64,000 bases of DNA. It comes from Longimicrobiales bacterium (GTDB lineage: Bacteria; Gemmatimonadota; Gemmatimonadetes; Longimicrobiales; RSA9). The position numbers were made by a program, and so were the translations under genes. Under the pieces are notes generated by a model. The model saw only the letters and a list, made by a program, of their open reading frames with translations. It was not told where the DNA came from and made no database searches. Positions 5,737 to 63,086 of the stretch are shown in pieces (the stretch's first letter is position 1; every line of letters starts with the position of its first letter). Where the stretch lies: assembly GCA_036381495.1 (NCBI GenBank), contig DASVCS010000015.1:5687-69686 (forward strand), written 5' to 3'.

Positions 5737-7620
5737 ATGACCTGGACGATCGACGATTCCCGCGAACTGTACAACATCGACGGCTGGGGAATCGATTACT
5801 TCGGGATCAACGAGAAGGGGCACGTCACGGTCCATCCGACCAAGGACCCCGACCGAGGCCTCGATCTCTTCGAGTTGGCCATGGATCTCGAGGCCCAGGG
5901 CGTGGGGCTGCCGCTCCTGCTGCGCTTCTCGGACATCCTCCGCACGCGCATCGAGACGCTCACCGAGCGGTTCCGTACCGCGATCCGGGAATTCGGCTAC
6001 GAGGGCGAGTATACGACGGTCTACCCGATCAAGGTGAACCAGCAGCGGCACGTGGTCGAGGAGATCGTGGGGTTCGGCGAGCGCTACGGCGCGGGACTCG
6101 AGGTGGGGAGCAAACCCGAGCTCCAGGCGGTGCTGGCGCTGACCGAGCGGACGGATCACATGATCATCTGCAACGGCTACAAGGATGAGGAGTACATCCG
6201 GCTGGCGCTGATCGGGCAGAAGCTCGGGCACACGGTGCTGATCGTGATCGAGAAGATCGGCGAGGTGGACACGCTGCTGCGGGTCGCCGCCGAGATGGAC
6301 GTGCGGCCGACGGCGGGTGTGCGCATCAAGCTGTCGGCGACCGGTGCGGGCCGTTGGTCGGAGACGGCGGGCGAGCGGAGCAAGTTCGGCTTGAACGCGT
6401 CGCAGTTGGCGCGGGTCCTGGACAAGCTCGAAGCGGCCGGGCGGCTGGACATCCTGAAGATGGTGCATTTCCACCTGGGCTCGCAGATCCCGGACATCCG
6501 GAACGTGAAGCTGGCGATGACGGAGGTCTCACGCTTCTACGTCGAGCTGCGCAAGCTCGGGGTGGATATCACGTACGTGGATGTGGGCGGCGGGCTGGGC
6601 GTCGACTACGACGGCTCGCGTTCGACGGCGTCGGCGAGCGTGAACTATTCGATCCAGGAGTACGCGAACGACATCATCTACTCGCTGGCCGAGGCGTGCC
6701 GGGAGGCCGAGATCCCGATGCCGCACGTGATCTCGGAGTCGGGTCGAGCGCTGACGGCGCATCACGCGTTGCTGCTGATCAACGTGGTGGATCTCGAGAC
6801 GCAGATCGAGGAGGTGCCGGAGTCGGTCCCCGAGGATGCCCATCCTCTGGTCCAGGAGCTGGCCGCGACGCTGCGCGAGGTGGGCGAGCGGGGCGTGCGG
6901 GAGGTGTACCATGACGCGTCGTTCGCGAGGGACCAGATGCGGACGCACTTCAACAGCGGCGTGCTGACGTTGCGGGAGCGTGCGTTGGCGGAGCGGCTGT
7001 ACCTCGCGATCATGAACCGGGTCGCGCAGCTCGTGTCGAACGATCCGGAGGAGTACGACGACATCCTGCCGGAGCTCGAGGCGATCCTGATCGATCGGTA
7101 TTTCTGCAACTTCTCGCTGTTCCAGTCGCTACCGGACTCGTGGGCGATCGACCAGCTCTTCCCGATCCTGCCGATCCACCGTTTGGACGAAGAGCCGACG
7201 CGGCGCGGGACGCTCCAGGACGTGACGTGCGATTCGGATGGAAAGATCGACCGGTTCATCGGTCCGCGCGCTCCGAAGCCGAGCCTGGAGCTGCACACCT
7301 TCCGGCCGGACGAGCCGTACATTCTGGGGATCTTCCTGACCGGCGCGTACCAGGAGATCCTGGGCGATCTCCACAACCTGTTCGGTGACACCAACGCGGT
7401 GCACATCCGGCTGACGGCCACGGGCTACGAGGTGGGCAACCTGGTCCACGGCGACACGATCACCGAGGTCCTGAACTACGTGCAGTTCAACGCACAGGAC
7501 CTGATCACCACGTTTCGGCGGAAGGTGCAGAACGCGCGGAACATCAGTCGGGCCGAGGCCAATGCCTTCATTGCGGATTACATCGGCGGGCTGGCGGGGT
7601 ACACGTATCTGGAGGGCTAG
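5737..7620 (+). CDS. speA: Biosynthetic arginine decarboxylase
   Basis: ORF 5341..7620(+), trimmed to the ATG at 5737. MTWTIDDSRELYNIDGWGIDYFGINEKGHVTVHP...LLLRFSDILRTRIETL...YPIKVNQQRHVVEEI is the typical SpeA N-terminus plus PLP-barrel. 627 aa. Confidence 0.9.
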   Translation: MTWTIDDSRELYNIDGWGIDYFGINEKGHVTVHPTKDPDRGLDLFELAMDLEAQGVGLPLLLRFSDILRTRIETLTERFRTAIREFGYEGEYTTVYPIKVNQQRHVVEEIVGFGERYGAGLEVGSKPELQAVLALTERTDHMIICNGYKDEEYIRLALIGQKLGHTVLIVIEKIGEVDTLLRVAAEMDVRPTAGVRIKLSATGAGRWSETAGERSKFGLNASQLARVLDKLEAAGRLDILKMVHFHLGSQIPDIRNVKLAMTEVSRFYVELRKLGVDITYVDVGGGLGVDYDGSRSTASASVNYSIQEYANDIIYSLAEACREAEIPMPHVISESGRALTAHHALLLINVVDLETQIEEVPESVPEDAHPLVQELAATLREVGERGVREVYHDASFARDQMRTHFNSGVLTLRERALAERLYLAIMNRVAQLVSNDPEEYDDILPELEAILIDRYFCNFSLFQSLPDSWAIDQLFPILPIHRLDEEPTRRGTLQDVTCDSDGKIDRFIGPRAPKPSLELHTFRPDEPYILGIFLTGAYQEILGDLHNLFGDTNAVHIRLTATGYEVGNLVHGDTITEVLNYVQFNAQDLITTFRRKVQNARNISRAEANAFIADYIGGLAGYTYLEG

Positions 7621-7645
7621 GGCTAGGGCTAGGGCTGGGGCTAGG
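7614..7645 (+). repeat. (GGGCTA)3-GGGCTG-GGGCTA hexamer array (repeat family A, minimal copy)
   Basis: Read directly. The array fills the whole convergent intergenic spacer. It contains the speA TAG (7618-7620) and the CTA (7641-7643) that is the stop of the minus-strand gene. Confidence 0.9.
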
Positions 7646-12592: not shown

Positions 12593-12831
12593 GGGCTGGG
12601 GCTGGGGCTAGGGCTAGGGCTAGGGCTGGGGCTGGGGGTGCCCGGGAGGGGGTGCGGTGGAGGGGAGGAAGGCCCGGGTATGACCGACAGCGGTGGGAGC
12701 GGGCTGGGAACGGCCGGGAGCGGGAGCGGGAACGTTTACGTTTACGTTTACGGGAGCGGGATGGGGGCGGCCGGGGGCGGGGTGCGGGACGCGCGCGCGC
12801 TCGCGCACGGGAGGGGCTGGGGGCGGCGGGG
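12593..12831 (+). repeat. Repeat family A, composite G-rich element (copy A)
   Basis: Seven GGGCTR hexamers (12593-12634), then GGTGCGGTGGAGGGGAGGAAGGCCCGGGTATGACCG, then GGGAGC/GGGAAC hexamers, then (GTTTAC)3 within 12731-12754, then a GGGACGCGCGCGCG module. Colinear with 24946-25330. Confidence 0.85.
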
Positions 12832-18637: not shown

Positions 18638-18673
18638 GATCAGGTTCGCGGGAACCGGTCAGTGTTACTGCAC

Positions 18674-18788
18674 GGGAACGGGAGCGGCGGCTGCGCCGCC
18701 TGGAGCGGGAACGTTTACGTTTACGGGAAACGGGAGCGCCCTCCGTGCCCGTAAACGTAAACGTTCCCGCTCCCGTTCCCGCTCCCGG
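18674..18788. repeat. Repeat family A, palindromic copy (26-bp perfect stem)
   Basis: GGAGCGGGAACGTTTACGTTTACGGG (18702-18727) is the exact reverse complement of 18748-18773, with a 20-nt loop. 18680-18728 is identical (49/49) to 25055-25103. A C-rich hexamer tail (GTTCCCGATCCCGCCCGATCCC) continues to about 18905. Confidence 0.9.
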
Positions 18789-18973
18789 AGGTCACCCCGA
18801 ATCGCGCACGGTCCATGCGAACTTGATCTGAGGGAGCGGCGCAGTCGCGGCGCCTGTCCCTGCAAGCGTTGTCGCTGCCGTTCCCGATCCCGCCCGATCC
18901 CGTCGCGGCCAGACGTAATTCGCCGAGCCGAGCCTGAAATTCGAGCGTCCTGTCCGGGTGTACCGCGGTGCGC

Positions 18974-24196: not shown

Positions 24197-24225
24197 TTGA
24201 CAGTCTGACAAATGTCCTTTACATT
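24197..24225 (+). promoter_or_regulatory. Sigma70-like promoter of the membrane-protein/XRE operon
   Basis: TTGACA (24197-24202), a 17-nt spacer, then TACATT (24220-24225). The spacer contains GACA-aa-TGTC, a possible operator. Confidence 0.45.
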
Positions 24226-24347
24226 GGCGCGAGTGGGTGCCGGGGTTGCCGCGTATGGAGAGCGGCTCGCGGGGGGCTCGGCGTTCAGCGGCCGCGGCGT
24301 GGGGGTCCGGCGTCGCGGCCGGGCGCTCGGAACGAACGGGAGGGCGC

Positions 24348-24746
24348 ATGACGGAGACGGTGGCCTACCGTCGGACGAAGCGGCGGTACGTGAAGGAGTT
24401 CGGCGCGGCGATGCTGGGTTACGGCGTGGTGCTGGTGGCGTCGCTGATGTGGCTGGAGGCGCACCCGGAATCGGCGTGGCGGGTCCCGGTGTCAGTGGCG
24501 CCGGTGGTACCGATCGGGCTTGCGTTGTGGGCGGCGGTGCGGCTGTTCCGCCGCCTGGACGAGCTGCATCGGCGGATCCAGGTCGAGGCGCTGGCGTTCG
24601 CGTTCACGGGGAGCGCGCTGTTCGTGATCACGTACGGATTCCTGGAGGGGGCGGGCTTCCCGAAGCTGACGATGTGGTGGGCGTGGACGGTGATGGGCGT
24701 GTTGTGGGGGGTCGGACACTGCATCGCGAGGTGGCGTTACCGGTGA
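24348..24746 (+). CDS. Small integral membrane protein (4 TM segments), unknown function
   Basis: ORF 24237..24746(+), trimmed to the ATG at 24348 (MTETVAYRRTKRRYVKEFGAAMLGYGVVLVASLMWL...). Its stop overlaps the GTG of the next gene (GTGA). Confidence 0.6.
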   Translation: MTETVAYRRTKRRYVKEFGAAMLGYGVVLVASLMWLEAHPESAWRVPVSVAPVVPIGLALWAAVRLFRRLDELHRRIQVEALAFAFTGSALFVITYGFLEGAGFPKLTMWWAWTVMGVLWGVGHCIARWRYR

Positions 24747-24952
24747 GGAATCGCCTGAGGGTGCTGCGAGCGGAGCGGGGTTGGTCGCAGGTCGAGCTGG
24801 CGGAGCGGCTGGGGGTTTCGCGACAGACGGTGAACGCGCTCGAGAACGACCGCTACGATCCGAGTCTGCCGCTGGCGTTCAGGATCGGCCGGCTGTTCGG
24901 GCTGCCGATCGAGGAGATCTTCTTGGATGGGGGCGCGCAGGAGGAGGGCTAG
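24743..24952 (+). CDS. Small XRE-family HTH regulator (YozG-like)
   Basis: This is the tail of ORF 24212..24952(+) from the GTG at 24743: VRNRLRVLRAERGWSQVELAERLGVSRQTVNALENDRYDPSLPLAFRIGRLFGLPIEEIF. The stop TAG lies in the first hexamer of repeat copy B. Confidence 0.8.
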   Translation: MRNRLRVLRAERGWSQVELAERLGVSRQTVNALENDRYDPSLPLAFRIGRLFGLPIEEIFLDGGAQEEG

Positions 24953-25330
24953 GGCTAGGGCTAGGGCTAGGGCTGGGGCTGGGGCTGGGGTTGCCCGGGA
25001 GGAGGTGCGGTGGAGGGGAGGACGGCCCTGGTATGGCCGGGAACGGCCGGGAGCGGGAGCGGCGGCTGCGCCGCCTGGAGCGGGAACGTTTACGTTTACG
25101 GGAGTGGCGGCGGCCGGGACGGGGGGCGATGGAGGGCGGAACGGCCGGGAAGGGCCCGGGAGGGCGTGTGGTGGAGGGGGAAGGGCCGGGTATGGCCCGG
25201 AGGGGGCGGAGCGCGGTTGATGCGGCGCCGTCGGGACGTACGGACGGGCGGGGCATGGCGGGGAGCGGTGTGGTGGAGGGGGCGGTGGGACGCGTGCGCG
25301 TACACGGTGGGCATGGGGGCTTCGGGCGAG
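24946..25330 (+). repeat. Repeat family A, composite G-rich element (copy B, with internal triplication)
   Basis: Seven GGGCTR hexamers (24946-24987), then the same modules as 12593-12831 plus a GGCGGC-tgc-GCCGCC hairpin module. (GTTTAC)2 is at about 25088-25099. The GGTG(C/T)GGTGGAGGGG module occurs three times (about 25005, 25170, 25268). Confidence 0.85.
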
Positions 25331-25364
25331 CGGCTGAGATGAACGGCGGGATGGAGGGGTGACC

Positions 25365-27203
25365 ATGGGCAAGGGGGTCGGGAGGACGGGGTTTGCGGCG
25401 GTGGTGGTCGGCGTTCTCCTCGGGCTGGCGGCGCCGGTCCGGGGGCAGGAGGCGACGGTGATCCGGGGGGTGCGCGTCTTCGACGGGGCGCGTGTGATCC
25501 CCTCGGCGACCGTGGTGATCCGCGGCGGTCGGATCGCGGCGGTCGGGCCCGGCGTGGACGTCCCGCCGGATGCGGAGGTCGTGGAGGGGGCGGGGCGGAC
25601 GCTGCTGCCGGGGCTGATCGATGCGCACACGCACACCTTCGCGCCGCAGATGCTCGAGGCGGCGCTCGCGTTCGGCGTGACGGCGCAACTGGACATGTTC
25701 ACGCCCCCGGCGCTGGCGGCGCGGTGGCGAGCGGAGCAGGAGGCGGGGGGCGCGGACACGCGAGCCGACCTCTTCTCCGCGGGGATCGTGGCGACGGCGC
25801 CGGGCGGCCACGGCACCGAGTACGGCTTTCCGATCCCGACGATCGCCGCGCCGGAGGCGGCGCAGGCGTTCGTGGATGCCCGCATCGCCGAGGGCTCGGA
25901 CTACATCAAGATCATCTACGATGACGGCGCGGCCTACGGCGTCCAGTTCCCGACGCTCGACGTGGCGACGCTGCGCGCGGTCGTCGCGGCCGCGCACGCG
26001 CGCGGCAAGCTGGCGGTCGTGCACATCGCGACGCTGCGGGATGCACGCGAGGCGGTGGTGGCCGGTGCGGACGGGCTCGCGCACCTGTGGGTCGACAGCG
26101 TCCCGGGTGATGCCCTGATCCGCGAGATGAGGGCACGCGACGTCTTCGTGATCCCGACGCTGACCGTGCTCGAGAGCGTGACCGGCCGGGCGAGCGGCGC
26201 GGCGCTGGTGGATGATGCGCGCATGGCGCCGTTTCTCGGGCCCGAGCAGCGCCAGCAGCTGATGCAGCACTTCCCCCGCAATCCCGCGGCGCCCGCGTCC
26301 TTCGATGCCGCGCGGGAATCGCTCGCCCGTCTGGCGGAGGCCGGCGTGCGCATCCTCGCCGGCACGGACGCGCCGAATCCGGGCACGACGCACGGCGCCA
26401 GCATCCACCGCGAGCTGGAGCTGCTGGTCGCGGCGGGGCTCCCGCCGGTCGAGGCGTTGCGTGCAGCCACCGCCGCGCCGGCCGCCGCGTTCGGCCTCGA
26501 AGAGCGCGGGCGAATCGCGCCCGGACGGCGCGCCGACCTGCTGCTCGTCGAGGGCGACCCGACCACCGACATCACCGCGACCCGCGCCATCGTCCGGATC
26601 TGGAAGGCGGGACGCGCGTTCGACCGCGAGGGCTACCGCCATCGGGCCGCGAGCCGTCCGGCGACCGCCGCGCGCGAGGCCTCGGCGCCCGCTGCGATCC
26701 AGCCGGGCGGCGCCATCATCGGCGCCTTCGATCACGGGGCCCTCGACGCCCCACTGGGCAGGGGCTGGGTCGAGACGACCGATGCGCTCATGGGCGGCCG
26801 GTCCACCGCCGTCCTCGACGTGGTCGCCGGCGGCGCCGCCGGGACCTCCCACGCGCTGCGCATCACGGGCGAGATCGCCGCCGGGCTCCCCTTCGCGTGG
26901 GGCGGCGCCATGTTCGTCCCCGGCGAGCGCCCCATGGCGCCCGTCGACCTCTCGGCCGTACGCGGACTCCGCTTCCACGCACGCGGCGACGGCGGGCGCT
27001 ACCGCGTCCTCCTCTTCACCCGCAAGGGCGGCCAGGCGCCCGCGGTCCGGAGCTTCACCGCCGACTCGACATGGCGGGAGTACGCCTTCGCCTGGTCGGA
27101 CTTCAACGGCAGCGACGGTTCCGACGTGATGGCCATCGCCATCGTCGGCGGACCGACACCCGGCCCGTACACCCTCTGGATCGACCAGGTCACGCTGCAC
27201 TGA
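25365..27203 (+). CDS. Secreted amidohydrolase-family enzyme with a C-terminal CIA30/carbohydrate-binding-like domain
   Basis: ORF 25359..27203(+). The ATG at 25365 is preceded by GGAGGGG. Signal GFAAVVVGVLLGLAAPVRGQ. The metal motif is LLPGLIDAHTHTF. The C-terminal roughly 170 aa (WVETTDALMGGRSTAVLDVV...YTLWIDQVTLH) resemble CIA30-type domains. Confidence 0.75.
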   Translation: MGKGVGRTGFAAVVVGVLLGLAAPVRGQEATVIRGVRVFDGARVIPSATVVIRGGRIAAVGPGVDVPPDAEVVEGAGRTLLPGLIDAHTHTFAPQMLEAALAFGVTAQLDMFTPPALAARWRAEQEAGGADTRADLFSAGIVATAPGGHGTEYGFPIPTIAAPEAAQAFVDARIAEGSDYIKIIYDDGAAYGVQFPTLDVATLRAVVAAAHARGKLAVVHIATLRDAREAVVAGADGLAHLWVDSVPGDALIREMRARDVFVIPTLTVLESVTGRASGAALVDDARMAPFLGPEQRQQLMQHFPRNPAAPASFDAARESLARLAEAGVRILAGTDAPNPGTTHGASIHRELELLVAAGLPPVEALRAATAAPAAAFGLEERGRIAPGRRADLLLVEGDPTTDITATRAIVRIWKAGRAFDREGYRHRAASRPATAAREASAPAAIQPGGAIIGAFDHGALDAPLGRGWVETTDALMGGRSTAVLDVVAGGAAGTSHALRITGEIAAGLPFAWGGAMFVPGERPMAPVDLSAVRGLRFHARGDGGRYRVLLFTRKGGQAPAVRSFTADSTWREYAFAWSDFNGSDGSDVMAIAIVGGPTPGPYTLWIDQVTLH

Positions 27204-27333: not shown

Positions 27334-27429
27334 TAGAGCGGTTGGCCCGCGGGTTCGGAGCCGCGTGGCCGCTCGCCGCGTTCGTACCGCGGGCGCGTGC
27401 GAATCCGAAGCGACGCGACAACCCCTCTC
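27334..27429 (+). repeat. Repeat family B, ~95-bp quasi-palindromic MITE-like element (copy E1)
   Basis: Left arm TAGAGCGGTTG-GCCCGCGGGT-TCGGAG. The right arm, reverse-complemented, is GAGAGGGGTTG-TCGCGTCGCT-TCGGAT. It is about 80% identical over its length to 54659-54752. Confidence 0.75.
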
Positions 27430-27546
27430 GCGCGTCGTGCCCCGGCACCCGGCTCCCCGCCCTCCCCCGGACGCGGCGCAAGGTCCTGCACGAGCTGATC
27501 CGGCACACCACTCCGGCCCCTGCTCCCCACCCTCCCATCGACACTC

Positions 27547-27588
27547 TTGACATCTAGTTTCTACACTCGTAATACTACGGCCGTAGAA
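27547..27588 (+). promoter_or_regulatory. Promoter plus candidate BlaI operator upstream of blaI-like gene 1
   Basis: TTGACA (27547-27552), a 17-nt spacer, then TAATAC (27570-27575). The palindrome CTACGGCCGTAG is at 27575-27586, within TACTAC-GGCC-GTAGAA. An extra TTCTAC half-site is at 27559. Confidence 0.5.
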
Positions 27589-27694
27589 CATGAGGCGACC
27601 GACGGCGGTTCGGGGTTGCCGGCAGACCGGCGAGCGAAGTGGCGTGGGGGCGAGGGGAGACGCCGCCCGTGCGGCAAGTGGAAGGATGGTACGG

Positions 27695-28093
27695 ATGAGC
27701 TATTCGTTGACGGAGCTCCAGCTCGCGCTGATGCGGGTGTTGTGGGAGCGAGGGGAGGCGACGGTGGTGGCGGTGCAGGAGGCGCTGGAGCCGGAGCGGC
27801 GGCTGGCGCAGTCGACGGTGGCGACGCTGCTGTCGCGGCTGGAGAAGCGGGGGCTGGTGACGCATCGGACGGAGAGCCGGCAGTACGTGTACCGGGCGCT
27901 GGTCACGGAGCAGGAGGTACGCCGGTCGATGGTGAGGGCGTTCGCGGAGTTGGCGGACGATCTGTTCCGCGGGGACGTCGCCGCGCTGGTGAGCCATCTG
28001 CTCACGGCGCAGGAGGTGGCGCCGGCGGATCTGGCGCGGGTGAAGGCGCTGATCGAGGCGAAGGAGCGGGAGCTGAACCGGAGGAGGTCATGA
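27695..28093 (+). CDS. BlaI/MecI/CopY-family transcriptional repressor (module 1)
   Basis: ORF 27590..28093(+), trimmed to the ATG at 27695 (GGAAGGA upstream). MSYSLTELQLALMRVLWERGEATVVAVQEALEPERRLAQSTVATLLSRLEKRGLV. The stop overlaps the ATG of the M56 gene (ATGA). Confidence 0.85.
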   Translation: MSYSLTELQLALMRVLWERGEATVVAVQEALEPERRLAQSTVATLLSRLEKRGLVTHRTESRQYVYRALVTEQEVRRSMVRAFAELADDLFRGDVAALVSHLLTAQEVAPADLARVKALIEAKERELNRRRS

Positions 28094-40284: not shown

Positions 40285-40580
40285 ACCGCGCCTCTCTTTC
40301 CGTTCGTGGGCGGGCCCCTCCCGGCGGCCGCCGCGGGCAACCGCTGGTGCGCCCGCGGGGATCCGCAAGGCCATCCGCCGCCGCGCCGGCCGGTCCGCGT
40401 CGCGGAGCCGGGATGGAGTGGCGGCGATTCGTTCGTCGGATCGCCCCCCGCAACTTCAATGCGAGCGGGCACGGCGGCCGGGGGCACGACCGGACCACGG
40501 GAGGCGTCGGCTGGCGAGAGGCGCGGGCGGGCGCGGGAAGCGCGCCCGGGATCGAATTCGGAGTGGTGCGGCAGCGGCTT

Positions 40581-40673
40581 TGCAGCGGTTCGCCCGCCGG
40601 TCTGGAGCCGCTCGGCCGCCCGCGCGCTCGCGACGCGCGGGTGCGACTCCGGACCGATAGGGCAACCGCTCTA
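40581..40673 (+). repeat. Repeat family B element (copy E2)
   Basis: Left arm TGCAGCGGTTC-GCCCGCCGGT-CTGGAG. The right arm, reverse-complemented, is TAGAGCGGTTG-CCCTATCGGT-CCGGAG. Its terminal CTA (40671-40673) is the stop codon of the minus-strand gene 40671..41354. A half copy (CAGCGGTTGCCCGCGG...CCGGGAGG on the minus strand) lies at 40317-40346. Confidence 0.7.
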
Positions 40674-41781: not shown

Positions 41782-43644
41782 TCACGATGCGGGTGCGCCC
41801 GCGGTCTGGAAGCTGACCGGGATCTGGATCCACACCGGGACCGGTTCGCCGTCCACGTTCAGCGCCGGCAAGAAGCGCATGACGTTCGCCACGCGCTGCG
41901 CGGCGGCGTCCAGCGCCGGATATCCGCTCGACGCCGAAACGGTCGCATTGACGACCGTGCCCTGCGCATCGATGAAGAGGAACATGGTCACCGAGCCGCC
42001 GATCCCGGCGTCCCGGAGCGCCGCCGGATATGACGCCGCCAGGGCCTGCTGCACCTCTGCGACGTTCGCGAGCGACGGCCTCACCCGCCCGATGGACGGC
42101 TGCTGCTTTTCTCCGGCGGCGCGACGCAGTGCGGCCGCGGCGGTGGTGAGGCGGCGCTCCCGTTCCGCCGACGGGGTGCTAGCCTCCGGTTCCGATGCCC
42201 CTCCGGCGCGCCGGAGCGACGGCGGGAACCTGAAATCGCTGCGGAACGTCCCGCCCGCGTCCGACGGCGTCAGGGTGCCGGAAAACGCCCGACCCTCATC
42301 GACCCGGAACGTCCCACCGGATTCCGGGAAGGTCAAGGTGCCCGGCAGCGGCCCACGCGCACGAGCGCCGGTCGACCGCACCTCACTCGGTTGCACCGCC
42401 TCCGCCAACCGCGCCGTGGCGGCCCGCACGGCGTCGCGCTCGGCCGCGGCGGCGGCGGCACGACCCTGTGCCGCCGCCTTCGTCGTGATGCGGATCTCGC
42501 CGCAGCCGCCGAGCTTCGTCGTGTGGCTGGCCGGATCGAAGCTGATCGCCGCGCCCTTGCGGACCTCGATCCTCTCGATGTCGTCCGGCCCGAGATTCTC
42601 GACCGCGGATTCACCCTTGCCCGGGAAGGTCCCGATGCGAACGCCGTCGACGTACATGACGGGACGGCACTCGGCGGGATCCGCGCCGTCCGGCACGGGA
42701 TCGAGGACGACGTGATCGCCGCCGACCGCGGCCTGCGGCTGCTCCTCGGGGATCGCCAGCGGCTCGGGCGCCTCGCACGCGCCGATCACGAGGAGCGCGG
42801 AAGCGCCGGCGCTTGCGAGGAACCGGCCGCGGCGCGGCCCGCCGCGCCGGCCGATCAGTCGGATCCGGCGCTCGAGAAACGGCTTCGGTTCGACGAGCCC
42901 CGCCATCATCAGCGCGCCGGCGCCGCGACGCCGGCCCACTTCGAGGAGCAGTTCACCATACGCGCGCGCATCCGGCACCCGTCGCAGAACGCGCGCATCG
43001 CAGTCCAGCTCCAGCGCCTGGCGCAGGCGCCAGAACTGCCACCACAGCGCGGGGTTCCACGGCATGGCGATGAGCGCCGCGACGGCCGCGACCACCAGCC
43101 GTGGATCCCCGGCGCGCAGGTGCTCCGACTCGTGGAGCAGCATCAGCTCCCGAAGCCGCGCGTCCAGTGCCAGCGCCCACTCGGGGATCACGATCGAGCC
43201 ACGCACGAAGCCCAGTGCGGCCGGACCGGTCCGCCCGGACACCAGGACCGGCGTCCCGCCCACCTCCGCCCGACGCCACCCCGCGCGCTCGCGCCACAGC
43301 CGCAGCAACGAGGCAAGCACCACGAGCAAGAAGAGCGCCGATGCCGCCAGCCAGGCGTACCGGAGCGAGGTGTCGAGGAGTCCGGCGGCCGGCGCCGCCG
43401 GGAGCGACGGCTGGACCACGATCTGTTCGAGGACCGCCGGGTCCGCGGTGACCGGCGCTTCCCCACCCCACGACGGCCACCCCAGCCATGCCGCCAGCGG
43501 CATGGCCAGCGAGCCCGCCATCGCGCCGACCCACACCCAGCGCACCGGGCGGCCCGCCGCCCGCAGCGCCGCCTCGCCCGCAACGGCGGCGATTCCCAAC
43601 AGCGTCGCGACGAGCGCGCAGTAGAACAGCCATGTCGCCATCAT
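41782..43644 (-). CDS. BlaR1-like M56 peptidase sensor fused to a plug-like segment and a TonB C-terminal domain (module 2)
   Basis: M56 motif LLHESEHLRAGDP. Plug-like segment MYVDGVRIG...LGPDDIERIEVRKGAA...GEIRITTK. The TonB_C segment is YPAALRDAGIGGSVTMFLFIDAQGTVVNATVSASSGYPALDAAAQRVANVMRFLPALNVDGEPVPVW. Its ATG overlaps the blaI-2 TGA (ATGA). Confidence 0.85.
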   Translation of the reverse strand: MMATWLFYCALVATLLGIAAVAGEAALRAAGRPVRWVWVGAMAGSLAMPLAAWLGWPSWGGEAPVTADPAVLEQIVVQPSLPAAPAAGLLDTSLRYAWLAASALFLLVVLASLLRLWRERAGWRRAEVGGTPVLVSGRTGPAALGFVRGSIVIPEWALALDARLRELMLLHESEHLRAGDPRLVVAAVAALIAMPWNPALWWQFWRLRQALELDCDARVLRRVPDARAYGELLLEVGRRRGAGALMMAGLVEPKPFLERRIRLIGRRGGPRRGRFLASAGASALLVIGACEAPEPLAIPEEQPQAAVGGDHVVLDPVPDGADPAECRPVMYVDGVRIGTFPGKGESAVENLGPDDIERIEVRKGAAISFDPASHTTKLGGCGEIRITTKAAAQGRAAAAAAERDAVRAATARLAEAVQPSEVRSTGARARGPLPGTLTFPESGGTFRVDEGRAFSGTLTPSDAGGTFRSDFRFPPSLRRAGGASEPEASTPSAERERRLTTAAAALRRAAGEKQQPSIGRVRPSLANVAEVQQALAASYPAALRDAGIGGSVTMFLFIDAQGTVVNATVSASSGYPALDAAAQRVANVMRFLPALNVDGEPVPVWIQIPVSFQTAGAPAS

Positions 43645-44018
43645 TGCTCGCCCTCCTTGCCCAGACGTTCATCCAGCAGCGCGCGCATCCTCCTCAAATC
43701 CTCTTCCGTCAGTCGCCGGTCCGACACGAGCTGCGTCAGCAGCAACTCCGGCCGGCCGGCGAACAGCTTCCGGACCATCCGCCCCAGCGCACTCGCACCC
43801 GCGCGCTCCCGCTCCACCAGCGGATGATACCGGTACGCCCGCCCCGCCTCCCGATGCCCCACGTACCCCTTCTCTTCGAGCGTCCGCAGCACCGTCAGCA
43901 CCGTCGTGTACGCCAGCTCATCCGGAAGCCGCTCCTTCACCTCCGCCACCGTCGCGGCGCCCAACTCCCACAGCACCGCCATCACGTCCAGCTCCCGTTC
44001 CGTGAACGAAATCTCCAC
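43641..44018 (-). CDS. BlaI/MecI/CopY-family transcriptional repressor (module 2)
   Basis: ORF 43641..44114(-), trimmed to the GTG at 44018, which is preceded by GCAGGAGGTG. (V)EISFTERELDVMAVLWELGAATVAEVKERLPDELAYTTVLTVLRTLEEKGYVGH. Confidence 0.85.
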   Translation of the reverse strand: MEISFTERELDVMAVLWELGAATVAEVKERLPDELAYTTVLTVLRTLEEKGYVGHREAGRAYRYHPLVERERAGASALGRMVRKLFAGRPELLLTQLVSDRRLTEEDLRRMRALLDERLGKEGEQ

Positions 44019-44751
44019 TCGCCACCTCCTGCATGAATCTCGCTTCGCCCCGCGCCGTCCGCTCCGCGGCCGCGCCTCCGGGCGGATCCGGCCCGGCCCG
44101 ATCACCACCGCCACCGGGCGGCCGCGATGGTGGACCGATCACCGCCGGAAGCTCGGCCGCGCCCGAGATCAACTCGACCGGCTCTTCGTCCAGCGGCACC
44201 ACCGCCGTGAAATAGTAGCGCCCCGGCCGGATCGTGTCGCCGATCACCGACGGCATCACCTCCGTCATCGTGAGAGACCGCGACGCATTCGCCGGCACCA
44301 CCAGCGGTTCGCCGCCCCCACGACAGGACCCGTCCTCTCGCTCCTCCCATGCCCGCCCCGTCCGCCGCGCCCACCCCCGCAAGCGTATGTACTCGTCCCA
44401 CGCCGGGAACCCCACCCGCTCCGGCGTCGTGTACAGCCGGACCCACACCATACAGGCGATCGGCGGCACCTCGACCGGCTCATCCCCACCGTTCTCCACC
44501 AGGATCTCCGTCCGGATCTGCACCGGCGCCACGGAGATGAAGCTCGTCACCGCCCGGTACGTCACATCCCCGTCCTCCCAAACCGGACGCGGACCTCTCG
44601 CCCCGCCGAATAGACCGAACACCGCCGAACACCCGGCCAGGCACACCGTCCCGAGCGCCGCCGACAGGCCGGCCGCCACGCAGAGCGCCGGGTGCCGACG
44701 CTCGCCCACACCGGGACGACGGCGCCGCGACCGCGTGCCGACGACGATCAC
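43918..44751 (-). CDS. Lipoprotein of unknown function, first gene of BlaI/BlaR1 module 2
   Basis: ORF 43918..44862(-). The proposed start is the GTG at 44751 (VIVVGTRSRRRRPGVGERRHPALCVAAGLSAALGTVCLAGC, with a lipobox). The core has balanced beta-rich composition (VWEDGDVTYRAVTSFISVAPVQIRTEILVENGG...RYYFTAVVPLDEEPVEL). A low-complexity tail overlaps the blaI-2 start by 101 nt. Confidence 0.55.
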   Translation of the reverse strand: MIVVGTRSRRRRPGVGERRHPALCVAAGLSAALGTVCLAGCSAVFGLFGGARGPRPVWEDGDVTYRAVTSFISVAPVQIRTEILVENGGDEPVEVPPIACMVWVRLYTTPERVGFPAWDEYIRLRGWARRTGRAWEEREDGSCRGGGEPLVVPANASRSLTMTEVMPSVIGDTIRPGRYYFTAVVPLDEEPVELISGAAELPAVIGPPSRPPGGGGDRAGPDPPGGAAAERTARGEARFMQEVASGDFVHGTGAGRDGGAVGVGRRDGGGGEGAASG

Positions 44752-54658: not shown

Positions 54659-54752
54659 TACGGCGGTCCACCCGCGGGTTCGGATCCGCGTGGCCGCCCG
54701 CCGCGCCCGGTTTGCGGGCGCAGGCCTCCGGAGTGACGCGACAACCGCTCTA
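54659..54752 (+). repeat. Repeat family B element (copy E3)
   Basis: The left arm is degenerate: TACGGCGGTCC-ACCCGCGGGT-TCGGAT. The right arm, reverse-complemented, is TAGAGCGGTTG-TCGCGTCACT-CCGGAG. CCCGCGGGTTCGGATCCGCGTGGCCGCCCGCCGCG matches copy E1 with 2 mismatches. Its terminal CTA (54750-54752) is the stop of gene 54750..55631. Confidence 0.75.
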
Positions 54753-60146: not shown

Positions 60147-60449
60147 TCACGCAGAGGAATTCGGCGTGCACCGGCTCGCCGGCACGCACGCATCGAGGAA
60201 GATCGCCGCCCCGATACTCTTCCGCCACCACAGCAGCACTCCGGCACCTGCGAGGAGGGCGAAATCGAGCAGAGCGAAGCGCGTTACCGCTGTAACGAAC
60301 CGCAGCCCGTCCGTGCCCAGGAGCGCAAAGACCGCTCCCACGCCGCCAGCGACGAAGGCGACGGCGCCGGCGCGGGTCGTCCGGTCCTCTGCCCGGCGCC
60401 GCGCTTCGAACCAGCGATCATTCCTCGATGCGTGCGTGCCGGCGGTCAT
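60147..60449 (-). CDS. Small 2-TM membrane protein (hypothetical)
   Basis: This is the tail of ORF 60147..60713(-) from the ATG at 60449. MTAGTHASRNDRWFEARRRAEDRTTRAGAVAFVAGGVGAVFALLG...FALLDFALLAGAGVLLWW. Confidence 0.4.
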   Translation of the reverse strand: MTAGTHASRNDRWFEARRRAEDRTTRAGAVAFVAGGVGAVFALLGTDGLRFVTAVTRFALLDFALLAGAGVLLWWRKSIGAAIFLDACVPASRCTPNSSA

Positions 60450-60570
60450 TCGGTTCTGGTGCACTGGGACGAGTGGGTGATGGGGCCGAGCATTCCAGCG
60501 TTCACGATGTCGAGCGAGGCACGGCCGTTGGAGTCGGTGGACCGCCGGGGAGAATCCTGCCTCCCTGCGG

Positions 60571-60873
60571 TCAATGCCCCCATACCGCGACGAACGGGAT
60601 CTCGGTCCATACACGCCAAATCCCGTCCTCGTCGGGGCGAAGGACCGCGACCCCGAACGTCTCCTCCTCCAGCCCTTTCTTCCAGGTCCAGACGAGCACC
60701 TCCGGTGCGCCATCCCCGGTCACGTCCAGCGGAGCGAGGGGCTCCCAGATCCCTTCGTGTGTCCAGGGACGATCCGTGAGTCGCTCGAAGCGGAGGAACA
60801 ATAGTTCGACGGAGTCCGCCGCAATGACCGCCGCGCCCGCGAACACAGTGGTTGACGGTCCCCTCGACCGCAC
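60571..60873 (-). CDS. FG-GAP-like repeat fragment, or a separate small ORF in the same frame as the upstream lipoprotein gene
   Basis: A GTG at 60873. It contains LDVTGDGAPEVLVW (a DxDGDG-type FG-GAP signature). It is in frame with ORF 60895..61680 and separated from it only by a TGA (60895-60897) plus 7 codons. Confidence 0.45.
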   Translation of the reverse strand: MRSRGPSTTVFAGAAVIAADSVELLFLRFERLTDRPWTHEGIWEPLAPLDVTGDGAPEVLVWTWKKGLEEETFGVAVLRPDEDGIWRVWTEIPFVAVWGH

Positions 60874-60894
60874 GGGCCGGGCGGTCCAGCTCCC

Positions 60895-61680
60895 TCAGAT
60901 CTGGCGAGTCTCATCCCCGACATTCCAGAGGTCCATCTTGGGGGCCGACTCGATGGTGGCGAAAACGGAGTCGCCGTTCCGGTTGACCTCGTTTTGCACC
61001 GCCATGAGAAATTCCCGTCGGATGTCCTCATCGATGTCATACGCGTGCGCAATGCGCTGCGGCGATGAGGACGGCAGAGAATCCGCCGGGAGCGCCAGAG
61101 AACGGAGCCCCTGCGGAAGTTCCACCTCGGGGGGGCCTACCTCGAACGCCGGCACGAGGAAGCGCATGTACGGGCGGTCCGGGGCCGAGCGTGAGAGATG
61201 AAGATCCCCACGCACACTCCGATCCGGAAACAACGCGATGGGGCGTTCGGTCGGCTGCGGTCCTCCTGGCTGGGCGGAATCCAGCCCTCCGATCTGAAAA
61301 GCCAGAGGCGGCCGCGACCCGATACCGAGCACGTATATGGTCCTCAGGATCGGCTGCCGTCTGACTACGGTTGCGACTGAATCCGTGTCAATTGCGACCG
61401 AATCCGTGTCGCGATCCGTTGTCGTGCCCAGGTCCCCGGGTTCCTCACCCCTCGGTGCCCGGCTGTCGGCCCGTTCGTCTTCTTGCAGGCCAACCATCGG
61501 CTCGCGCGGATCCCCCACCGCTGCAGATGCTTCGCCTCGCCGGTCGACGGCGAGAACCGAGTCCTCGTGGGTCCCTCCGGCCGTCCTGTCGCCGGTTCCG
61601 ACGCACGCTCCGCAGGCGAGCGCGACCAGAACAGGAGCGTAGCGCGAACACCGCCGCAACCAATCTGTCGACTTTACCAT
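60895..61680 (-). CDS. Lipoprotein of unknown function
   Basis: ORF 60895..61884(-), trimmed to the ATG at 61680 (MVKSTDWLRRCSRYAPVLVALACGAC, lipobox), 11 nt after the upstream stop. An acidic linker is followed by a globular part. Confidence 0.55.
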   Translation of the reverse strand: MVKSTDWLRRCSRYAPVLVALACGACVGTGDRTAGGTHEDSVLAVDRRGEASAAVGDPREPMVGLQEDERADSRAPRGEEPGDLGTTTDRDTDSVAIDTDSVATVVRRQPILRTIYVLGIGSRPPLAFQIGGLDSAQPGGPQPTERPIALFPDRSVRGDLHLSRSAPDRPYMRFLVPAFEVGPPEVELPQGLRSLALPADSLPSSSPQRIAHAYDIDEDIRREFLMAVQNEVNRNGDSVFATIESAPKMDLWNVGDETRQI

Positions 61681-61691
61681 TCGTAAACGCC

Positions 61692-62711: not shown

Positions 62712-63086
62712 CTCGTCGATTCCTCCGGGTTGCGGGGCAGAGATTGACGTTCCGGACGTCCAGATGAGCACATCTCCGTTCCATAAAGGATCGGCACATG
62801 CCCCGCCGCCGTTCAATCCCCGGCTGCGGCGCCGTGTCCAGTACAGGTTCCGCTGCAAGGCTGCTTCGCGAGTCCCTGATTGCGGCGGAAATGTTTGGAA
62901 GTCGACTGAGTGCGACACCTTCGCCGGCGCTCGTGCCGAACTGCTCCTCGCCCTCCTGGCCACCGACGTGCTGGCCGGCGGCGCCCACCTGCTCGGCCGA
63001 AACGAGCAGGCGGGAATCAGGTGCGAGCGATTCCGCACCGTCGTCCCAGAGTGCACTGCGCGCGTGCTGCTGAGGTGCCTCGCGCC

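What the first reader, a model, noticed from the sequence alone, without database searches (positions are those of the whole stretch)
24946..25330. Largest family A copy fills the XRE-amidohydrolase spacer; its first hexamer provides the XRE stop codon and a module is triplicated
The TAG of the small XRE gene (24950-24952) is in unit 1 of GGGCTA x4 and is followed by three more in-frame TAGs, then GGGCTG x3. After that:
- The same modules as copy A follow (GGTGCGGTGGAGGGGAGGACGGCCCTGGTATGGCCG, GGGAGC units, (GTTTAC)2).
- An extra 21-nt hairpin module is present.
- Two further degenerate repeats of the GGTGTGGTGGAGGGGG...GGCCGGGTATGGCCC module occur at about 25170 and 25268.
- The shared GGGACGCGTGCGCG 3' module closes the element.

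The element ends about 35 nt before the amidohydrolase start. In both composite copies the downstream gene encodes a signal-peptide hydrolase. In three of four family A loci the array touches a stop codon. This suggests either insertion into gene 3' ends or a functional role at gene boundaries.
Basis: seen in the sequence. Interest (0 to 1): 0.7.

Follow-up and report, generated by a model that had tools for sequence, protein, structure and literature searches.

The report
G-rich mosaic intergenic repeat, Longimicrobiales
The 385-base spacer between a small regulator gene and a hydrolase gene is the largest copy of a previously undescribed, non-coding, very G-rich modular repeat that sits right at gene ends in two Longimicrobiales genomes; it resembles known bacterial intergenic repeats and quadruplex-forming microsatellites and is not a new kind of system.

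Summary
The XRE gene (24745-24952) stops at TAG 24950-52, inside unit 1 of (GGGCTA)4(GGGCTG)3. Behind the array come a G-rich module (M1), a conserved core with (GTTTAC)2, a second M1, half of a third M1, and a shared tail ending about 35 nt before the amidohydrolase start.

- **Non-random:** all motifs exceed shuffle expectation.
- **Non-coding:** no codon periodicity, no protein or Rfam match.
- **Composition:** 56% G, the strongest G-quadruplex-prone stretch in the window.
- **Distribution:** the core occurs 7 times in the DNA held, 4 in the window and 3 on one contig of another Longimicrobiales MAG. It is absent from about 85 kb of other relatives.
- **Insertion:** two syntenic XRE-amidohydrolase loci lack it, so it arose within this lineage.

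Relatives already have TAG at the same XRE position, and some have it at the same speA position. The array therefore probably grew from, or was captured at, a pre-existing "GGN-TAG-GG" stop. It probably did not donate the stop.

No terminal inverted repeats, target duplications or transposase were found. Best reading: a new family of mosaic interspersed repeat with a G4/hairpin-forming microsatellite head. It probably spreads by slippage and ectopic recombination and is tolerated only with its G-rich strand as the sense strand. Function is unproven. Interest is moderate to low.

The parts
24745..24952 (+). Small XRE-family HTH regulator gene (69 aa, GTG start, TAG stop), overlapping the stop of the upstream 169-aa membrane-protein gene
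   Evidence: ORF. Pfam HTH_3 E 9.8e-17. The identical protein is on Logan contig L001. Orthologues are in L008 and L020.
24946..24990 (+). Hexamer microsatellite (GGGCTA)4(GGGCTG)3GGG. It contains the XRE stop (24950-52) and three further in-frame TAGs (24956, 24962, 24968). Two canonical G3N3 quadruplex motifs.
   Evidence: 13 pattern matches against 0 expected. PQS list.
24991..25040 (+). Linker plus module M1, copy a (GTGCGGTGGAGGGGAGGACGGCCCTGGTATGGCC at 25005-25038)
   Evidence: 85% identical with 12593-12746 over 157 nt. Motif tests. Coordinates.
25038..25123 (+). Conserved family core: GGGAACGGCC(GGGAGC)2, 21-nt GC hairpin insert (25061-25081), GGGAAC(GTTTAC)2GGGA, GGCGGCGGCCGGGACGGG
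   Evidence: nhmmer core profile E 1.5e-15. Alignments A1 and A4. 98% identical to 18673-18728.
25138..25201 (+). Partial internal duplication: core-start 13-mer GGAACGGCCGGGA (25138-25150) plus M1 copy b (25166-25199)
   Evidence: Self-matches 25154-25201 vs 24993-25042 (82%) and 25138-25150 = 25040-25052. Coordinates.
25268..25285 (+). M1 copy c, 5' half only (GTGTGGTGGAGGGGGCGG)
   Evidence: 25268-25282 = 25166-25180, 15/15. Motif test.
25287..25330 (+). Shared 3' tail (GGGACGCGTGCGCG...CACGG..GGGGGC..CGG). It ends 35 nt before the amidohydrolase ATG.
   Evidence: Matches 12786-12831. The same tail is in L004 4211-4246 (89%).
25365..27203 (+). Downstream gene: secreted amidohydrolase with CIA30-like C-terminal domain (612 aa from ATG 25365)
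   Evidence: Pfam Amidohydro_1/3 and CIA30. Homologues.
7613..7645 (+). Family locus 1: solo (GGGCTA)3 GGGCTG GGGCTA array between convergent speA (+, stop TAG 7618-20) and an FAD-binding gene (-, stop = CTA 7641-43)
12593..12831 (+). Family locus 2: composite copy (array, M1, core with (GTTTAC)3, tail) between an S9 peptidase gene and a gamma-glutamyltranspeptidase gene. A 24-nt GC hairpin separates it from the upstream TGA.
18639..18835 (.). Family locus 3: two cores head-to-head inside a ~200-nt near-perfect palindrome just after the kup stop codon. No GGGCTA array.
   Evidence: DNA fold z = -8.8.

Best explanation
**What it is.** The spacer 24946-25330 is the largest copy of a lineage-restricted, non-coding, strand-asymmetric mosaic repeat family.

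**Architecture, 5' to 3' on the G-rich strand**
- A (GGGCTR)n microsatellite.
- An optional module M1.
- A conserved core of about 75 nt built of GGGAAC/GGGAGC hexamers flanking (GTTTAC)2-3.
- A GC-alternating tail that ends in array-like GGGGCTGGGG sequence.

**Proposed history (inferred)**
1. The microsatellite head nucleates at, or is captured by microhomology with, a pre-existing stop-codon context of the form GGN-TAG-GG. That context is already one repeat unit.
2. The head then grows and shrinks by replication slippage. This fits the G-quadruplex and hairpin folding shown in vitro for GGGCTA repeats.
3. The rest of the element is copied between loci by ectopic recombination or gene conversion, anchored in the array-like sequences at both ends. 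No dedicated transposase is needed.
4. Partial internal duplication of the core start and M1 made this copy the largest.

**Tolerance and effects (inferred)**
- The element behaves mainly as a tolerated, selfish spacer.
- It persists inside co-directional gene strings only with its G-rich strand as the sense strand. In that orientation the transcript is C-poor and a poor Rho loading site, and TAG in the repeat unit ends the upstream ORF cleanly when in frame.
- Quadruplex-prone RNA or DNA starting right at the stop codon could affect mRNA 3'-end stability, termination or co-transcription. These effects are possible but not shown.

**Shown:** the anatomy, the non-coding nature, the dispersal, absence in syntenic relatives, and the G4-prone composition.
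**Inferred:** seeding at TAG, recombinational spread, and orientation selection.
For: **Anatomy and non-randomness:**

**Non-coding**
- There is no 3-nt periodicity. GC is 0.69-0.83 at every codon position in all three frames, whereas real genes here show GC3 0.85-0.93 and GC2 about 0.5.
- The array sits in different frames relative to the core in different copies.
- A profile of the translated core found nothing among 5.8e9 proteins.
- phmmer of the open frame against 1.84e9 representatives found only a spurious tandem-repeat protein.
- Rfam gave nothing, even at E <= 1.

**Dispersed family**
- There are 7 core copies with nhmmer E from 2e-18 to 1.5e-11. Four are in the window and three on contig DASVDH010000100.1 of Longimicrobiales MAG SMAG_U2028.
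- 32-mers are 100% identical between the two genomes.

**Lineage-restricted insertion**
- No copy occurs in about 85 kb of non-redundant DNA from relatives. This includes two syntenic XRE-amidohydrolase loci and the closest speA loci at 85-87% aa identity.

**Stop predates the array**
- XRE orthologues end in TAG at the same place.
- speA orthologues share ...GYTYLEG. One reads GAG GGG TAG GGGCGGG with no array.
- Junctions at three genes read GGN-TAG-GGC.

**No transposon hallmarks**
- No TIR or TSD was seen. Pfam found no transposase, integrase or RT in the 37 putative window ORFs scanned.
- Array-like GGGGCTGGGGG recurs in the tail.

**G4 and hairpin propensity**
- Composition is G 56% and C 20%, GC skew +0.47.
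- 7 of 9 short-loop PQS on the + strand lie in family loci.
- The two highest 300-nt G4Hunter means are 1.32 and 1.29, against a window mean of 0.06 and sd of 0.29.
- ViennaRNA with G-quadruplexes lowers the sense-strand MFE from -169 to -251 kcal/mol. The antisense value is unchanged.
- (GGGCTA)4 folds into a G4 and longer arrays into G4 plus hairpins, with length-dependent instability in human telomeres (PMC8287962).

**Orientation**
- The G-rich strand is the sense strand of the upstream gene in 6 of 8 loci.
Against: - Only eight loci in two genomes are available, and neither complete genome is.
- No empty site is close enough to read the junctions at nucleotide resolution. The syntenic relatives are 72-84% identical in the flanking genes.
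- No population or long-read data show array length variation.
- Core identity of 90-100% between two different genomes could instead reflect recognition by a trans-acting protein or a selected function.
- The recombinational copy mechanism and the Rho-based orientation filter are inferences with no direct test here.
- Clustering of copies (4 within 18 kb in the window, 4 on a 12-kb contig) is not specifically explained.
Confidence: 0.55

Rival explanations
1. It is a non-autonomous mobile element (MITE- or REPIN-like), mobilised in trans by a transposase or RAYT encoded elsewhere in the genome. It inserts preferentially at TA/TAG, which in a 70% GC genome is concentrated at stop codons.
For: - The same core is dispersed at 90-100% identity across two genomes.
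- Local copy density is high where the family is present and zero in other relatives.
- The locus at 18639-18835 is an inverted doublet forming a long hairpin, like a REPIN.
- The solo array at 7613-7645 is bounded by TA...TA. Excising it would restore GAGGGCTAGGCC, in which both convergent genes stop in one CTAG.
- A second, clearly palindromic repeat family in the window (TAGAGCGGTTG termini) also places its TAG on two stop codons.
Against: - Complete copies have no terminal inverted repeats. Both ends carry array-like sequence in direct orientation.
- No consistent TSD was seen.
- Watson-Crick folding of the array and core is no better than shuffles, with z of +2.4 and -0.85.
- Pfam found no transposase, RAYT, integrase or RT gene in the 37 putative ORFs it scanned in the 64-kb window.
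- The left boundary varies between copies.
Confidence: 0.15
2. It is a selected cis-acting element that works through G-quadruplexes in the transcript or the non-template DNA strand. Placed at the stop codon, it could tune termination or ribosome release and stabilise the upstream mRNA 3' end. It could also act as a directional insulator that is Rho-resistant in sense and rut-rich in antisense.
For: - G4 propensity is extreme and strand-specific.
- Position and orientation match the Xanthomonas/Nostoc GGGNATC repeats. Those lie between aligned ORFs, within 50 bp of or overlapping the stop on the coding strand, prefer four units, and are transcribed (PMC4692102).
- The array here has 4+3 units.
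- The core is 90-100% conserved between genomes.
- From my own knowledge, not found in the paper library: REP elements within about 15 nt of a stop codon lower translation in E. coli (Liang, Rudd & Deutscher 2015).
Against: - It is absent from syntenic and near relatives, so it is not needed for these genes.
- Flanking genes are functionally unrelated.
- Copy architecture is highly variable, with internal duplications and truncations.
- No promoter- or terminator-like site lies in any copy.
- No function was found even for the much more abundant Xanthomonas repeats.
- No transcription data exist for this organism.
Confidence: 0.15
3. There is no dispersal. Each locus is an independent local microsatellite or minisatellite that grew in place from hexamer-periodic sequence.
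For: - (GGGCTA)n arrays arise sporadically in unrelated genomes without the other modules.
- The solo array at 7613-7645 can be derived from the ancestral GAG-GGC-TAG-G context.
- Lag-6 periodicity is strong in copy 12593-12831, at 0.55-0.61.
Against: - The non-repetitive core, M1 and tail are shared at 82-100% identity among loci and between two genomes. Independent slippage cannot produce that.
- Junctions such as GGGCTGGGGAACGGCC recur.
Confidence: 0.05
4. The region is protein-coding (a small G/R/W-rich protein or a read-through extension of XRE), or the arrays are assembly artefacts.
For: - The XRE frame is open from 24971 to 25339 after the four TAGs.
- In the second genome the TsaE ORF runs 64 codons through a copy.
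Against: - Four consecutive in-frame TAGs precede the open frame.
- There is no codon-position signal.
- Frames are inconsistent among copies.
- No homologues were found in two exhaustive protein searches.
- The element is absent in orthologous loci.
- Against an artefact: an independent Logan contig contains the first four units, and an independent MAG has the same arrays and modules.
Confidence: 0.03

Closest known systems
GGGNATC / GGGGA(C/T)T quadruplex-forming simple sequence repeats of Xanthomonas and Nostoc (Rehm et al. 2015, PMC4692102)
   Same: - A short G3-containing unit repeated in tandem, with four units being common.
- Over-represented between co-directional ORFs.
[quoted passage not shown]
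- Not associated with IS elements, and function unknown.
   Different: - The unit here is a hexamer (GGGCTR), not a heptamer.
- The phylum differs (Gemmatimonadota).
- The array here is the head of a larger element with unique conserved modules (M1, GTTTAC core, tail).
- Only a handful of copies are known, against hundreds.
BOX elements of Streptococcus pneumoniae (boxA-boxB(n)-boxC; Croucher et al. 2011, PMC3049150), and, from my own knowledge, E. coli BIMEs
   Same: - Modular interspersed intergenic repeats with variable module number and size (BOX spans 67-637 bp).
- Restricted to a species and its close relatives.
- Clustered and nested copies that are co-transcribed with neighbours.
- Interpreted as parasitic rather than functional.
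   Different: - BOX has terminal inverted repeats, makes target-site duplications and folds into stable stem-loops.
- This family has none of these for its complete copies.
- This family is extremely G-rich on one strand and carries a microsatellite head.
Human telomeric variant repeat (CTAGGG)n = (GGGCTA)n (Chatain et al. 2021, PMC8287962)
   Same: The hexamer is identical. Four repeats fold into a G4 with a GCGC tetrad in vitro. Longer arrays fold into G4 and hairpins and show length-dependent instability.
   Different: That is a eukaryotic telomere context. Here the arrays are short (4-8 units), interstitial, mixed with GGGCTG units, and lie at bacterial stop codons. There is no evolutionary relationship.
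Mycobacterial interspersed repetitive units (MIRUs; Supply et al. 1997, from my own knowledge)
   Same: Repeats fill spacers between genes of the same orientation and overlap the stop codon of the upstream gene.
   Different: MIRUs are tandem 40-100-bp units that contain small ORFs and also overlap the downstream start codon. Here the unit is a hexamer plus unique modules. The element stops about 30-40 nt before the next start, and no ORF is conserved.
REP/REPIN elements mobilised by RAYT transposases (from my own knowledge; cf. PMC4690160, seen only as a title and abstract)
   Same: Short GC-rich extragenic repeats near gene 3' ends. The inverted doublet at 18639-18835 resembles a REPIN.
   Different: There is no conserved imperfect palindrome or GTAG head in the core. 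Folding is not better than shuffles. No RAYT gene is in the window.

Membership tests
MITE (miniature inverted-repeat transposable element) | Terminal inverted repeats | tested here: not met
   Alignment of copies and sequence reading show both ends of complete copies carrying G-rich, array-like sequence in direct orientation.
MITE (miniature inverted-repeat transposable element) | Target-site duplication flanking each copy | tested here: inconclusive
   No consistent duplication is seen at the composite copies. Only the solo array at 7613-7645 is bounded by TA...TA. No empty site is close enough for nucleotide resolution.
MITE (miniature inverted-repeat transposable element) | Related autonomous IS or transposase in the genome | not testable with these tools
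   Pfam found none in the 37 putative window ORFs scanned. The rest of the genome is not available.
REP/REPIN (RAYT-associated) | Conserved imperfect palindrome forming a stable ssDNA hairpin | tested here: not met
   DNA folding gives z = +2.4 for the array and z = -0.85 for the core against shuffles. Only the head-to-head doublet at 18675-18795 is significant, z = -8.8.
BOX/BIME-type mosaic interspersed repeat | Built of distinct modules that vary in presence and number between copies | tested here: met
   The array, M1 (0-3 copies), the core, a 21-nt hairpin insert, (GTTTAC)2-3 and the tail combine differently in 8 loci.
BOX/BIME-type mosaic interspersed repeat | Extensive stem-loop structure, TIR and TSD (BOX) | tested here: not met
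   RNAalifold finds only a weak, invariant 11-pair helix with no informative covariation.
G-quadruplex-forming bacterial SSR (Rehm et al. class) | Tandem G3-containing short units, at least 4 units, able to form G4 | tested here: met
   (GGGCTR)7 is present, with two canonical G3N3 motifs. Folding was predicted only here. In vitro G4 formation for (GGGCTA)4 DNA is reported in PMC8287962.
G-quadruplex-forming bacterial SSR (Rehm et al. class) | Located between aligned ORFs, on the coding strand, within 50 bp of or overlapping the stop codon | tested here: met
   Window arrays at 7613, 12593 and 24946 start 0-24 nt from the upstream stop on its coding strand. L004 4053 does the same.
G-quadruplex-forming bacterial SSR (Rehm et al. 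class) | Heptamer unit GGGNATC / GGGGAYT; hundreds of copies genome-wide | tested here: not met
   The unit is the hexamer GGGCTR. Genome-wide copy number is not testable.
MIRU | Tandem 40-100-bp units with small ORFs overlapping both the upstream stop and the downstream start | tested here: not met
   Only the upstream stop is overlapped. The element ends 35 nt before the next start. No conserved ORF exists.
Structured non-coding RNA / riboswitch leader | Match to a curated family, or a conserved structure with covariation | tested here: not met
   Rfam gave 0 hits at gathering score and at E <= 1. There is no covariation. It is absent upstream of orthologous genes.
Protein-coding sequence | Codon-position bias, a conserved frame, and homologues | tested here: not met

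The most novel reading that the evidence does not exclude
The family is a transposase-independent, quadruplex-driven 'copy-paste' repeat. It nucleates specifically on TAG stop codons followed by a G-run and spreads by G4-induced breaks and ectopic gene conversion. It is retained because it acts as a directional intercistronic module. In the sense direction it gives a Rho-proof, G4-structured spacer starting at the stop codon, which could modulate ribosome release and mRNA 3'-end stability. In the antisense direction it gives a C-rich rut site that kills antisense transcription.
Probability: 0.12. Interest if true: 0.7.

Novelty: new variant of a known kind. Interest (0 to 1): 0.4.

Why it matters
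- Interspersed repeats have not, to my knowledge, been described in Gemmatimonadota or Longimicrobiales. Nothing matched in Rfam, the paper library, or the plasmid, viral or metagenome scans.
- This family joins two known phenomena in one element: modular mosaic repeats and quadruplex-forming microsatellites at stop codons.
- It offers a compact natural test case for three questions. Do G4-prone repeats seed at stop codons? Can repeats spread without a transposase? Does Rho-dependent polarity dictate the orientation of insertions inside operons?
- In practice, these elements break short-read assemblies. A Logan contig ends inside the array.
- They also mislead gene callers through long spurious ORFs and C-terminal extensions such as the one on TsaE.
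- If it is merely a tolerated selfish spacer, it is an ordinary genome-annotation item.

Tried and rejected
**Wider searches that found nothing useful**
- The exact core 21-mer in 185,579 GTDB species genomes gave one Longimicrobiales MAG plus one chance archaeal hit.
- The same core in JGI metagenomes gave three chance coding hits (GTFTFTG) at 49-58% GC.
- In viral contigs the core gave nothing. The array alone gave 8 unrelated (GGGCTA)n arrays, two of them embedded in telomere-like GGGTTA repeats of a 295-kb contig.
- Distant blastn against plasmids gave no match.

**Protein route to more copies**
- A profile of the translated core against 5.8e9 proteins gave nothing.
- phmmer of the 123-aa open frame against 1.84e9 representatives gave one spurious tandem-repeat hit.

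**Ideas tested and dropped**
- Structured RNA: rejected.
- Promoter or intrinsic terminator inside the element: none found.
- tRNA or tmRNA target: none.
- Transposase nearby: none.
- Regulatory link to secreted hydrolases: dropped, because copies in the second genome precede relA/spoT and tsaB.

**Could not be done**
- Exact-protein look-up of the amidohydrolase found no second assembly of the locus.
- Divergence between the two element-bearing genomes could not be measured, because the two contigs share no orthologous gene.
Full report
**Context**

- The window is 70.5% GC.
- Its proteins have their best named matches in Longimicrobium, Longimicrobiaceae and Longimicrobiales MAGs of the phylum Gemmatimonadota.
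- I made a gene map from third-position GC and Pfam scans. It shows ordinary chromosomal genes and no transposase, integrase or reverse transcriptase.
- Around the finding the order is as follows, all on the + strand:
  - a promoter-like site at 24197-24225;
  - a 169-aa membrane-protein gene (24237-24746);
  - a 69-aa XRE/HTH_3 regulator (24745-24952; E 9.8e-17);
  - the 385-nt spacer;
  - a secreted amidohydrolase with a CIA30-like domain (ATG 25365 to 27203).

**Check of the observation**

- The XRE stop TAG (24950-52) lies in the first unit of (GGGCTA)4.
- Three further in-frame TAGs follow, then (GGGCTG)3GGG up to 24990.
- Next come, in order:
  - module M1 (25005-25038);
  - (GGGAGC)2 (25049-25060);
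  - a 21-nt GC hairpin module (25061-81);
  - GGGAAC(GTTTAC)2 (25082-25099);
  - a repeat of the core-start 13-mer (25138-50);
  - a second M1 (25166-99);
  - the 5' half of a third M1 (25268-85);
  - the tail GGGACGCGTGCGCG (25287-25300).
- Similarity to the other composite copy fades near 25330, which is 35 nt before the start codon.
- Dinucleotide-preserving shuffles give 0.00 expected array matches against 13 found. They give 0.07 against 4 exact matches (5 allowing one mismatch), and 0.11 against 3, for the two halves of M1.
- The arrays are not an assembly artefact:
  - A Logan contig from run SRR25158368 carries an identical XRE gene. It runs into the same four GGGCTA units before ending.
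  - An independently assembled MAG has the same arrays and modules.
- Two sub-claims need correction:
  - The third M1 is only a half copy.
  - The array overlaps a stop codon at two of the four window loci, not three.

**The family**

The window holds four loci.

1. 7613-7645 is a solo array. It sits exactly between the TAG of speA (+) and the TAG of a convergent FAD-binding gene (-).
2. 12593-12831 is a composite copy between an S9 peptidase gene and a gamma-glutamyltranspeptidase gene.
3. 18639-18835 holds two cores head-to-head inside a ~200-nt palindrome after kup. It has no GGGCTA array.
4. 24946-25330 is the finding.

Further points about the family:

- An exact search for the core 21-mer in one genome from each of 185,579 species found one other carrier. 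This is contig DASVDH010000100.1 of Longimicrobiales MAG SMAG_U2028.
- That 12-kb contig has four loci:
  - a reversed array plus the first 11 nt of the core, next to an intrinsic terminator;
  - a copy between radC and relA/spoT;
  - a copy inside the 3' end of the tsaE ORF;
  - a copy after rimI.
- A core profile (nhmmer) finds exactly seven cores in all DNA held, with E from 2e-18 to 1.5e-11, and no weaker relatives.
- The consensus core is GGGGAACGGCCGGGAACGGGAGCGGGAGCGGGAAC(GTTTAC)2GGGATGGGGGCGGCCGGGAACGGG.
- The recurring junction GGGCTGGGGAACGGCC shows that the array and the core belong to one element. In the window copies M1 sits between them.
- The tail GCGCGCTCGCGCACGG(G)AGGGGC.GGGGGCGG is shared between 12790-12826 and L004 4211-4246 at 89% identity.

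**It is non-coding**

- Lag-3 periodicity is absent. GC is 0.69-0.83 at all codon positions in all three frames. Real genes here have GC3 of 0.85-0.93 and GC2 near 0.5.
- The array is read as G*G* in one copy and GLGL in another, relative to the same core frame.
- Copies differ by indels that are not multiples of three.
- No protein in 5.8e9 clusters matches a profile of the translated core.
- The 123-codon open frame matches only a spurious tandem-repeat sequence among 1.84e9 representatives.
- Rfam gives nothing, even at E <= 1.
- RNAalifold finds only a weak invariant helix between (GGGAGC)n and (GTTTAC)n, with no covariation on those pairs.

**It is an insertion in this lineage**

- Two metagenomic relatives (L008 from ENA, L020 from JGI) keep the membrane-protein/XRE/amidohydrolase order. 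Their amidohydrolases are 67% identical to the window protein.
- In both, XRE is followed directly by unrelated sequence.
- Nucleotide homology to the window ends at 24915 and resumes at 25460.
- The closest speA loci (85-87% aa) have neither arrays nor cores. Nor do the other relatives' loci (L009-L011).
- In all, about 85 kb of non-redundant DNA from relatives lacks the family.

**The stop-codon relationship**

- Both XRE orthologues already end in TAG at the equivalent position (GAT GAG GCG TAG and GAT GAA GCG TAG; 70 aa against 69 aa).
- SpeA orthologues share ...GYTYLEG.
  - Most continue for 2-6 residues: EGEG in 23 and EGEA in 13 of the 120 listed proteins.
  - Eight of the 120, one of them the window's own SpeA, end at LEG.
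  - In L027 the sequence reads GAG GGG TAG GGGCGGG with no array.
- The junctions are:
  - GAG GGC TAG GGC at both speA and XRE;
  - GGT TAG GGC TGG at rimI of the second genome.
- TAG is a common stop here, used by 13 of 37 genes, and it is often followed by GG.
- The simplest reading is that a GGN-TAG-GG stop context is itself one repeat unit. It then serves as a slippage seed or a microhomology landing site.
- On this reading the stop was not donated by the element.
- Where a copy lacking an array abuts a gene end, as at tsaE, the ORF reads on for 64 codons. This shows what happens without the built-in TAG.
- An unrelated ~95-nt palindromic repeat in the window (termini TAGAGCGGTTG...CAACCGCTCT) also puts its TAG on two stop codons. 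Stop-codon overlap by small repeats is therefore a wider habit of this genome.
- CTAG is otherwise almost absent. Of the 20 CTAG sites in 64 kb, 11 lie inside the arrays.

**Physical properties**

- The element is 56% G and 20% C, with GC skew +0.47.
- Seven of the nine short-loop quadruplex motifs on the + strand lie in family loci.
- The two composite copies have the highest 300-nt G4Hunter means in the window, 1.32 and 1.29. The window mean is 0.06 with sd 0.29.
- Allowing G-quadruplexes lowers the predicted sense-RNA energy of the finding from -169 to -251 kcal/mol. The antisense value does not change.
- Ordinary Watson-Crick folding of the array and the core is no better than shuffled sequence. 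Only the palindrome at 18.7 kb stands out, with z = -8.8.
- The same hexamer has been studied as a human telomere variant:
  - (GGGCTA)4 forms a G4 with a GCGC tetrad.
  - Longer arrays form G4 and hairpins.
  - The arrays show length-dependent instability (PMC8287962).

**How it most likely works**

*Shown*
- A modular, non-coding, G-rich repeat family confined to a narrow lineage.
- It is inserted at gene ends.
- It usually lies with its G-rich strand as the sense strand (6 of 8 loci).

*Inferred*
1. The array nucleates at TAG-GG stops and varies by slippage.
2. The remainder is copied between loci by ectopic recombination, anchored in array-like sequence at both ends. The tail ends in GGGGCTGGGGG. 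This would explain the absence of TIRs, TSDs and a transposase.
3. Orientation is filtered by selection. A 200-400-nt untranslated spacer inside a gene string would invite Rho-dependent polarity if it were C-rich. In the observed orientation the RNA is C-poor, with a C/G ratio of about 0.36. A Rho homologue is present in a related contig (L010).
4. This copy became the largest through partial internal duplication of the core start plus M1.

I give this composite explanation a probability of about 0.55. Rivals are a trans-mobilised MITE/REPIN-like element (0.15), a selected G4-based cis element (0.15), purely local microsatellites (0.05), and coding sequence or artefact (0.03).

**Comparison with known systems**

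- In position, orientation and unit count, the array matches the quadruplex-forming GGGNATC repeats of Xanthomonas and Nostoc. The function of those repeats is also unknown (PMC4692102).
- In modularity, narrow host range, clustering and nesting, the whole element resembles pneumococcal BOX elements (PMC3049150). It also resembles E. coli BIMEs (from my own knowledge).
- It fails the defining tests for several classes:
  - MITE, REP and BOX: no TIR, no stable hairpin, no demonstrable TSD.
  - MIRU: no overlap with the downstream start and no small ORF.
- I therefore file it as a new variant among bacterial interspersed intergenic repeats, not as a member of any named family.

**Verdict**

It is probably wrong about which came first, the stop codon or the array.
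- Interest is moderate to low (0.4). It is a tidy, undescribed repeat family in an under-studied phylum with an unusual G4/stop-codon association.
- Evidence is limited to eight loci in two draft genomes, and no function has been demonstrated.

Noticed in passing
window 27334-27430 (+), ~40575-40673 (-), 54671-54752 (-): A second interspersed family ('B'): a ~95-nt palindromic element with termini TAGAGCGGTTG...CAACCGCTCT, about 73% mean column identity among three copies. In two copies the terminal TAG is the stop codon of the adjacent minus-strand gene (40671-73 and 54750-52). It looks MITE- or REP-like and may be flanked by TA.
   Followed up: partly
window 18639-18835: A ~200-nt near-perfect palindrome lies immediately after the kup stop codon. 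It includes two family cores head-to-head and matching outer flanks (GATCAGGTTCGC / GCGAACTTGATC). The DNA fold has z = -8.8. It looks like a snap-back inverted duplication and could act as a strong 3' hairpin.
   Followed up: partly
whole window: CTAG is almost absent. There are 20 sites in 64 kb, against roughly 176 expected from base composition by my own arithmetic, and 11 of the 20 lie inside the GGGCTA arrays. TAG is nevertheless a frequent stop codon (13 of 37 genes; TGA 23, TAA 1).
   Followed up: partly
L002 160-370 (contig DASVDH010000100.1): About 14 copies of a 15-nt-period G-rich repeat (consensus near GGCCGCGGGGACTGG) lie directly beside a reversed (CCCAGC/CCCTAG) array and a canonical intrinsic terminator (L002 405-445). 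I could not tell whether it is coding (a pentapeptide repeat) or not.
   Followed up: no
L004 2199-2819 (same contig): The TsaE domain ends at residue 141 of the ORF. The ORF then continues for 64 codons through a family copy (GTAGNGSGSGNVYVYG...) to a TGA. This is a probable repeat-derived C-terminal extension, or the result of a displaced stop codon.
   Followed up: partly
L001 (Logan SRR25158368 contig, 1124 nt): This short-read contig has an identical XRE gene and terminates inside the hexamer array. Such repeats break short-read assemblies, so the family is probably under-represented in public MAGs.
   Followed up: no
L017 / L019 (IMG/VR UViG_641201223, 295,146 bp): An 11-unit (GGGCTA) array is embedded in GGGTTA telomere-like repeats in a large viral genome. 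Other viral contigs carry isolated (GGGCTA)4-8 arrays. These are independent occurrences of the same hexamer microsatellite without the other modules.
   Followed up: no
window 60150-63090: This stretch has lower GC (0.66) and no ORF passing the GC3 filter. It contains a 21-nt tandem repeat TTGCGACCGAATCCGTGTCAA x1.9 (61371-61410) and a 30-nt inverted repeat (60177-60206 / 60414-60444). It may be foreign or degraded DNA.
   Followed up: no
window 27587-28090 and 41785-44138: There are two BlaI-like (Penicillinase_R) repressor genes. One is paired with a BlaR1-type M56 peptidase fused to a TonB C-terminal domain.
   Followed up: no
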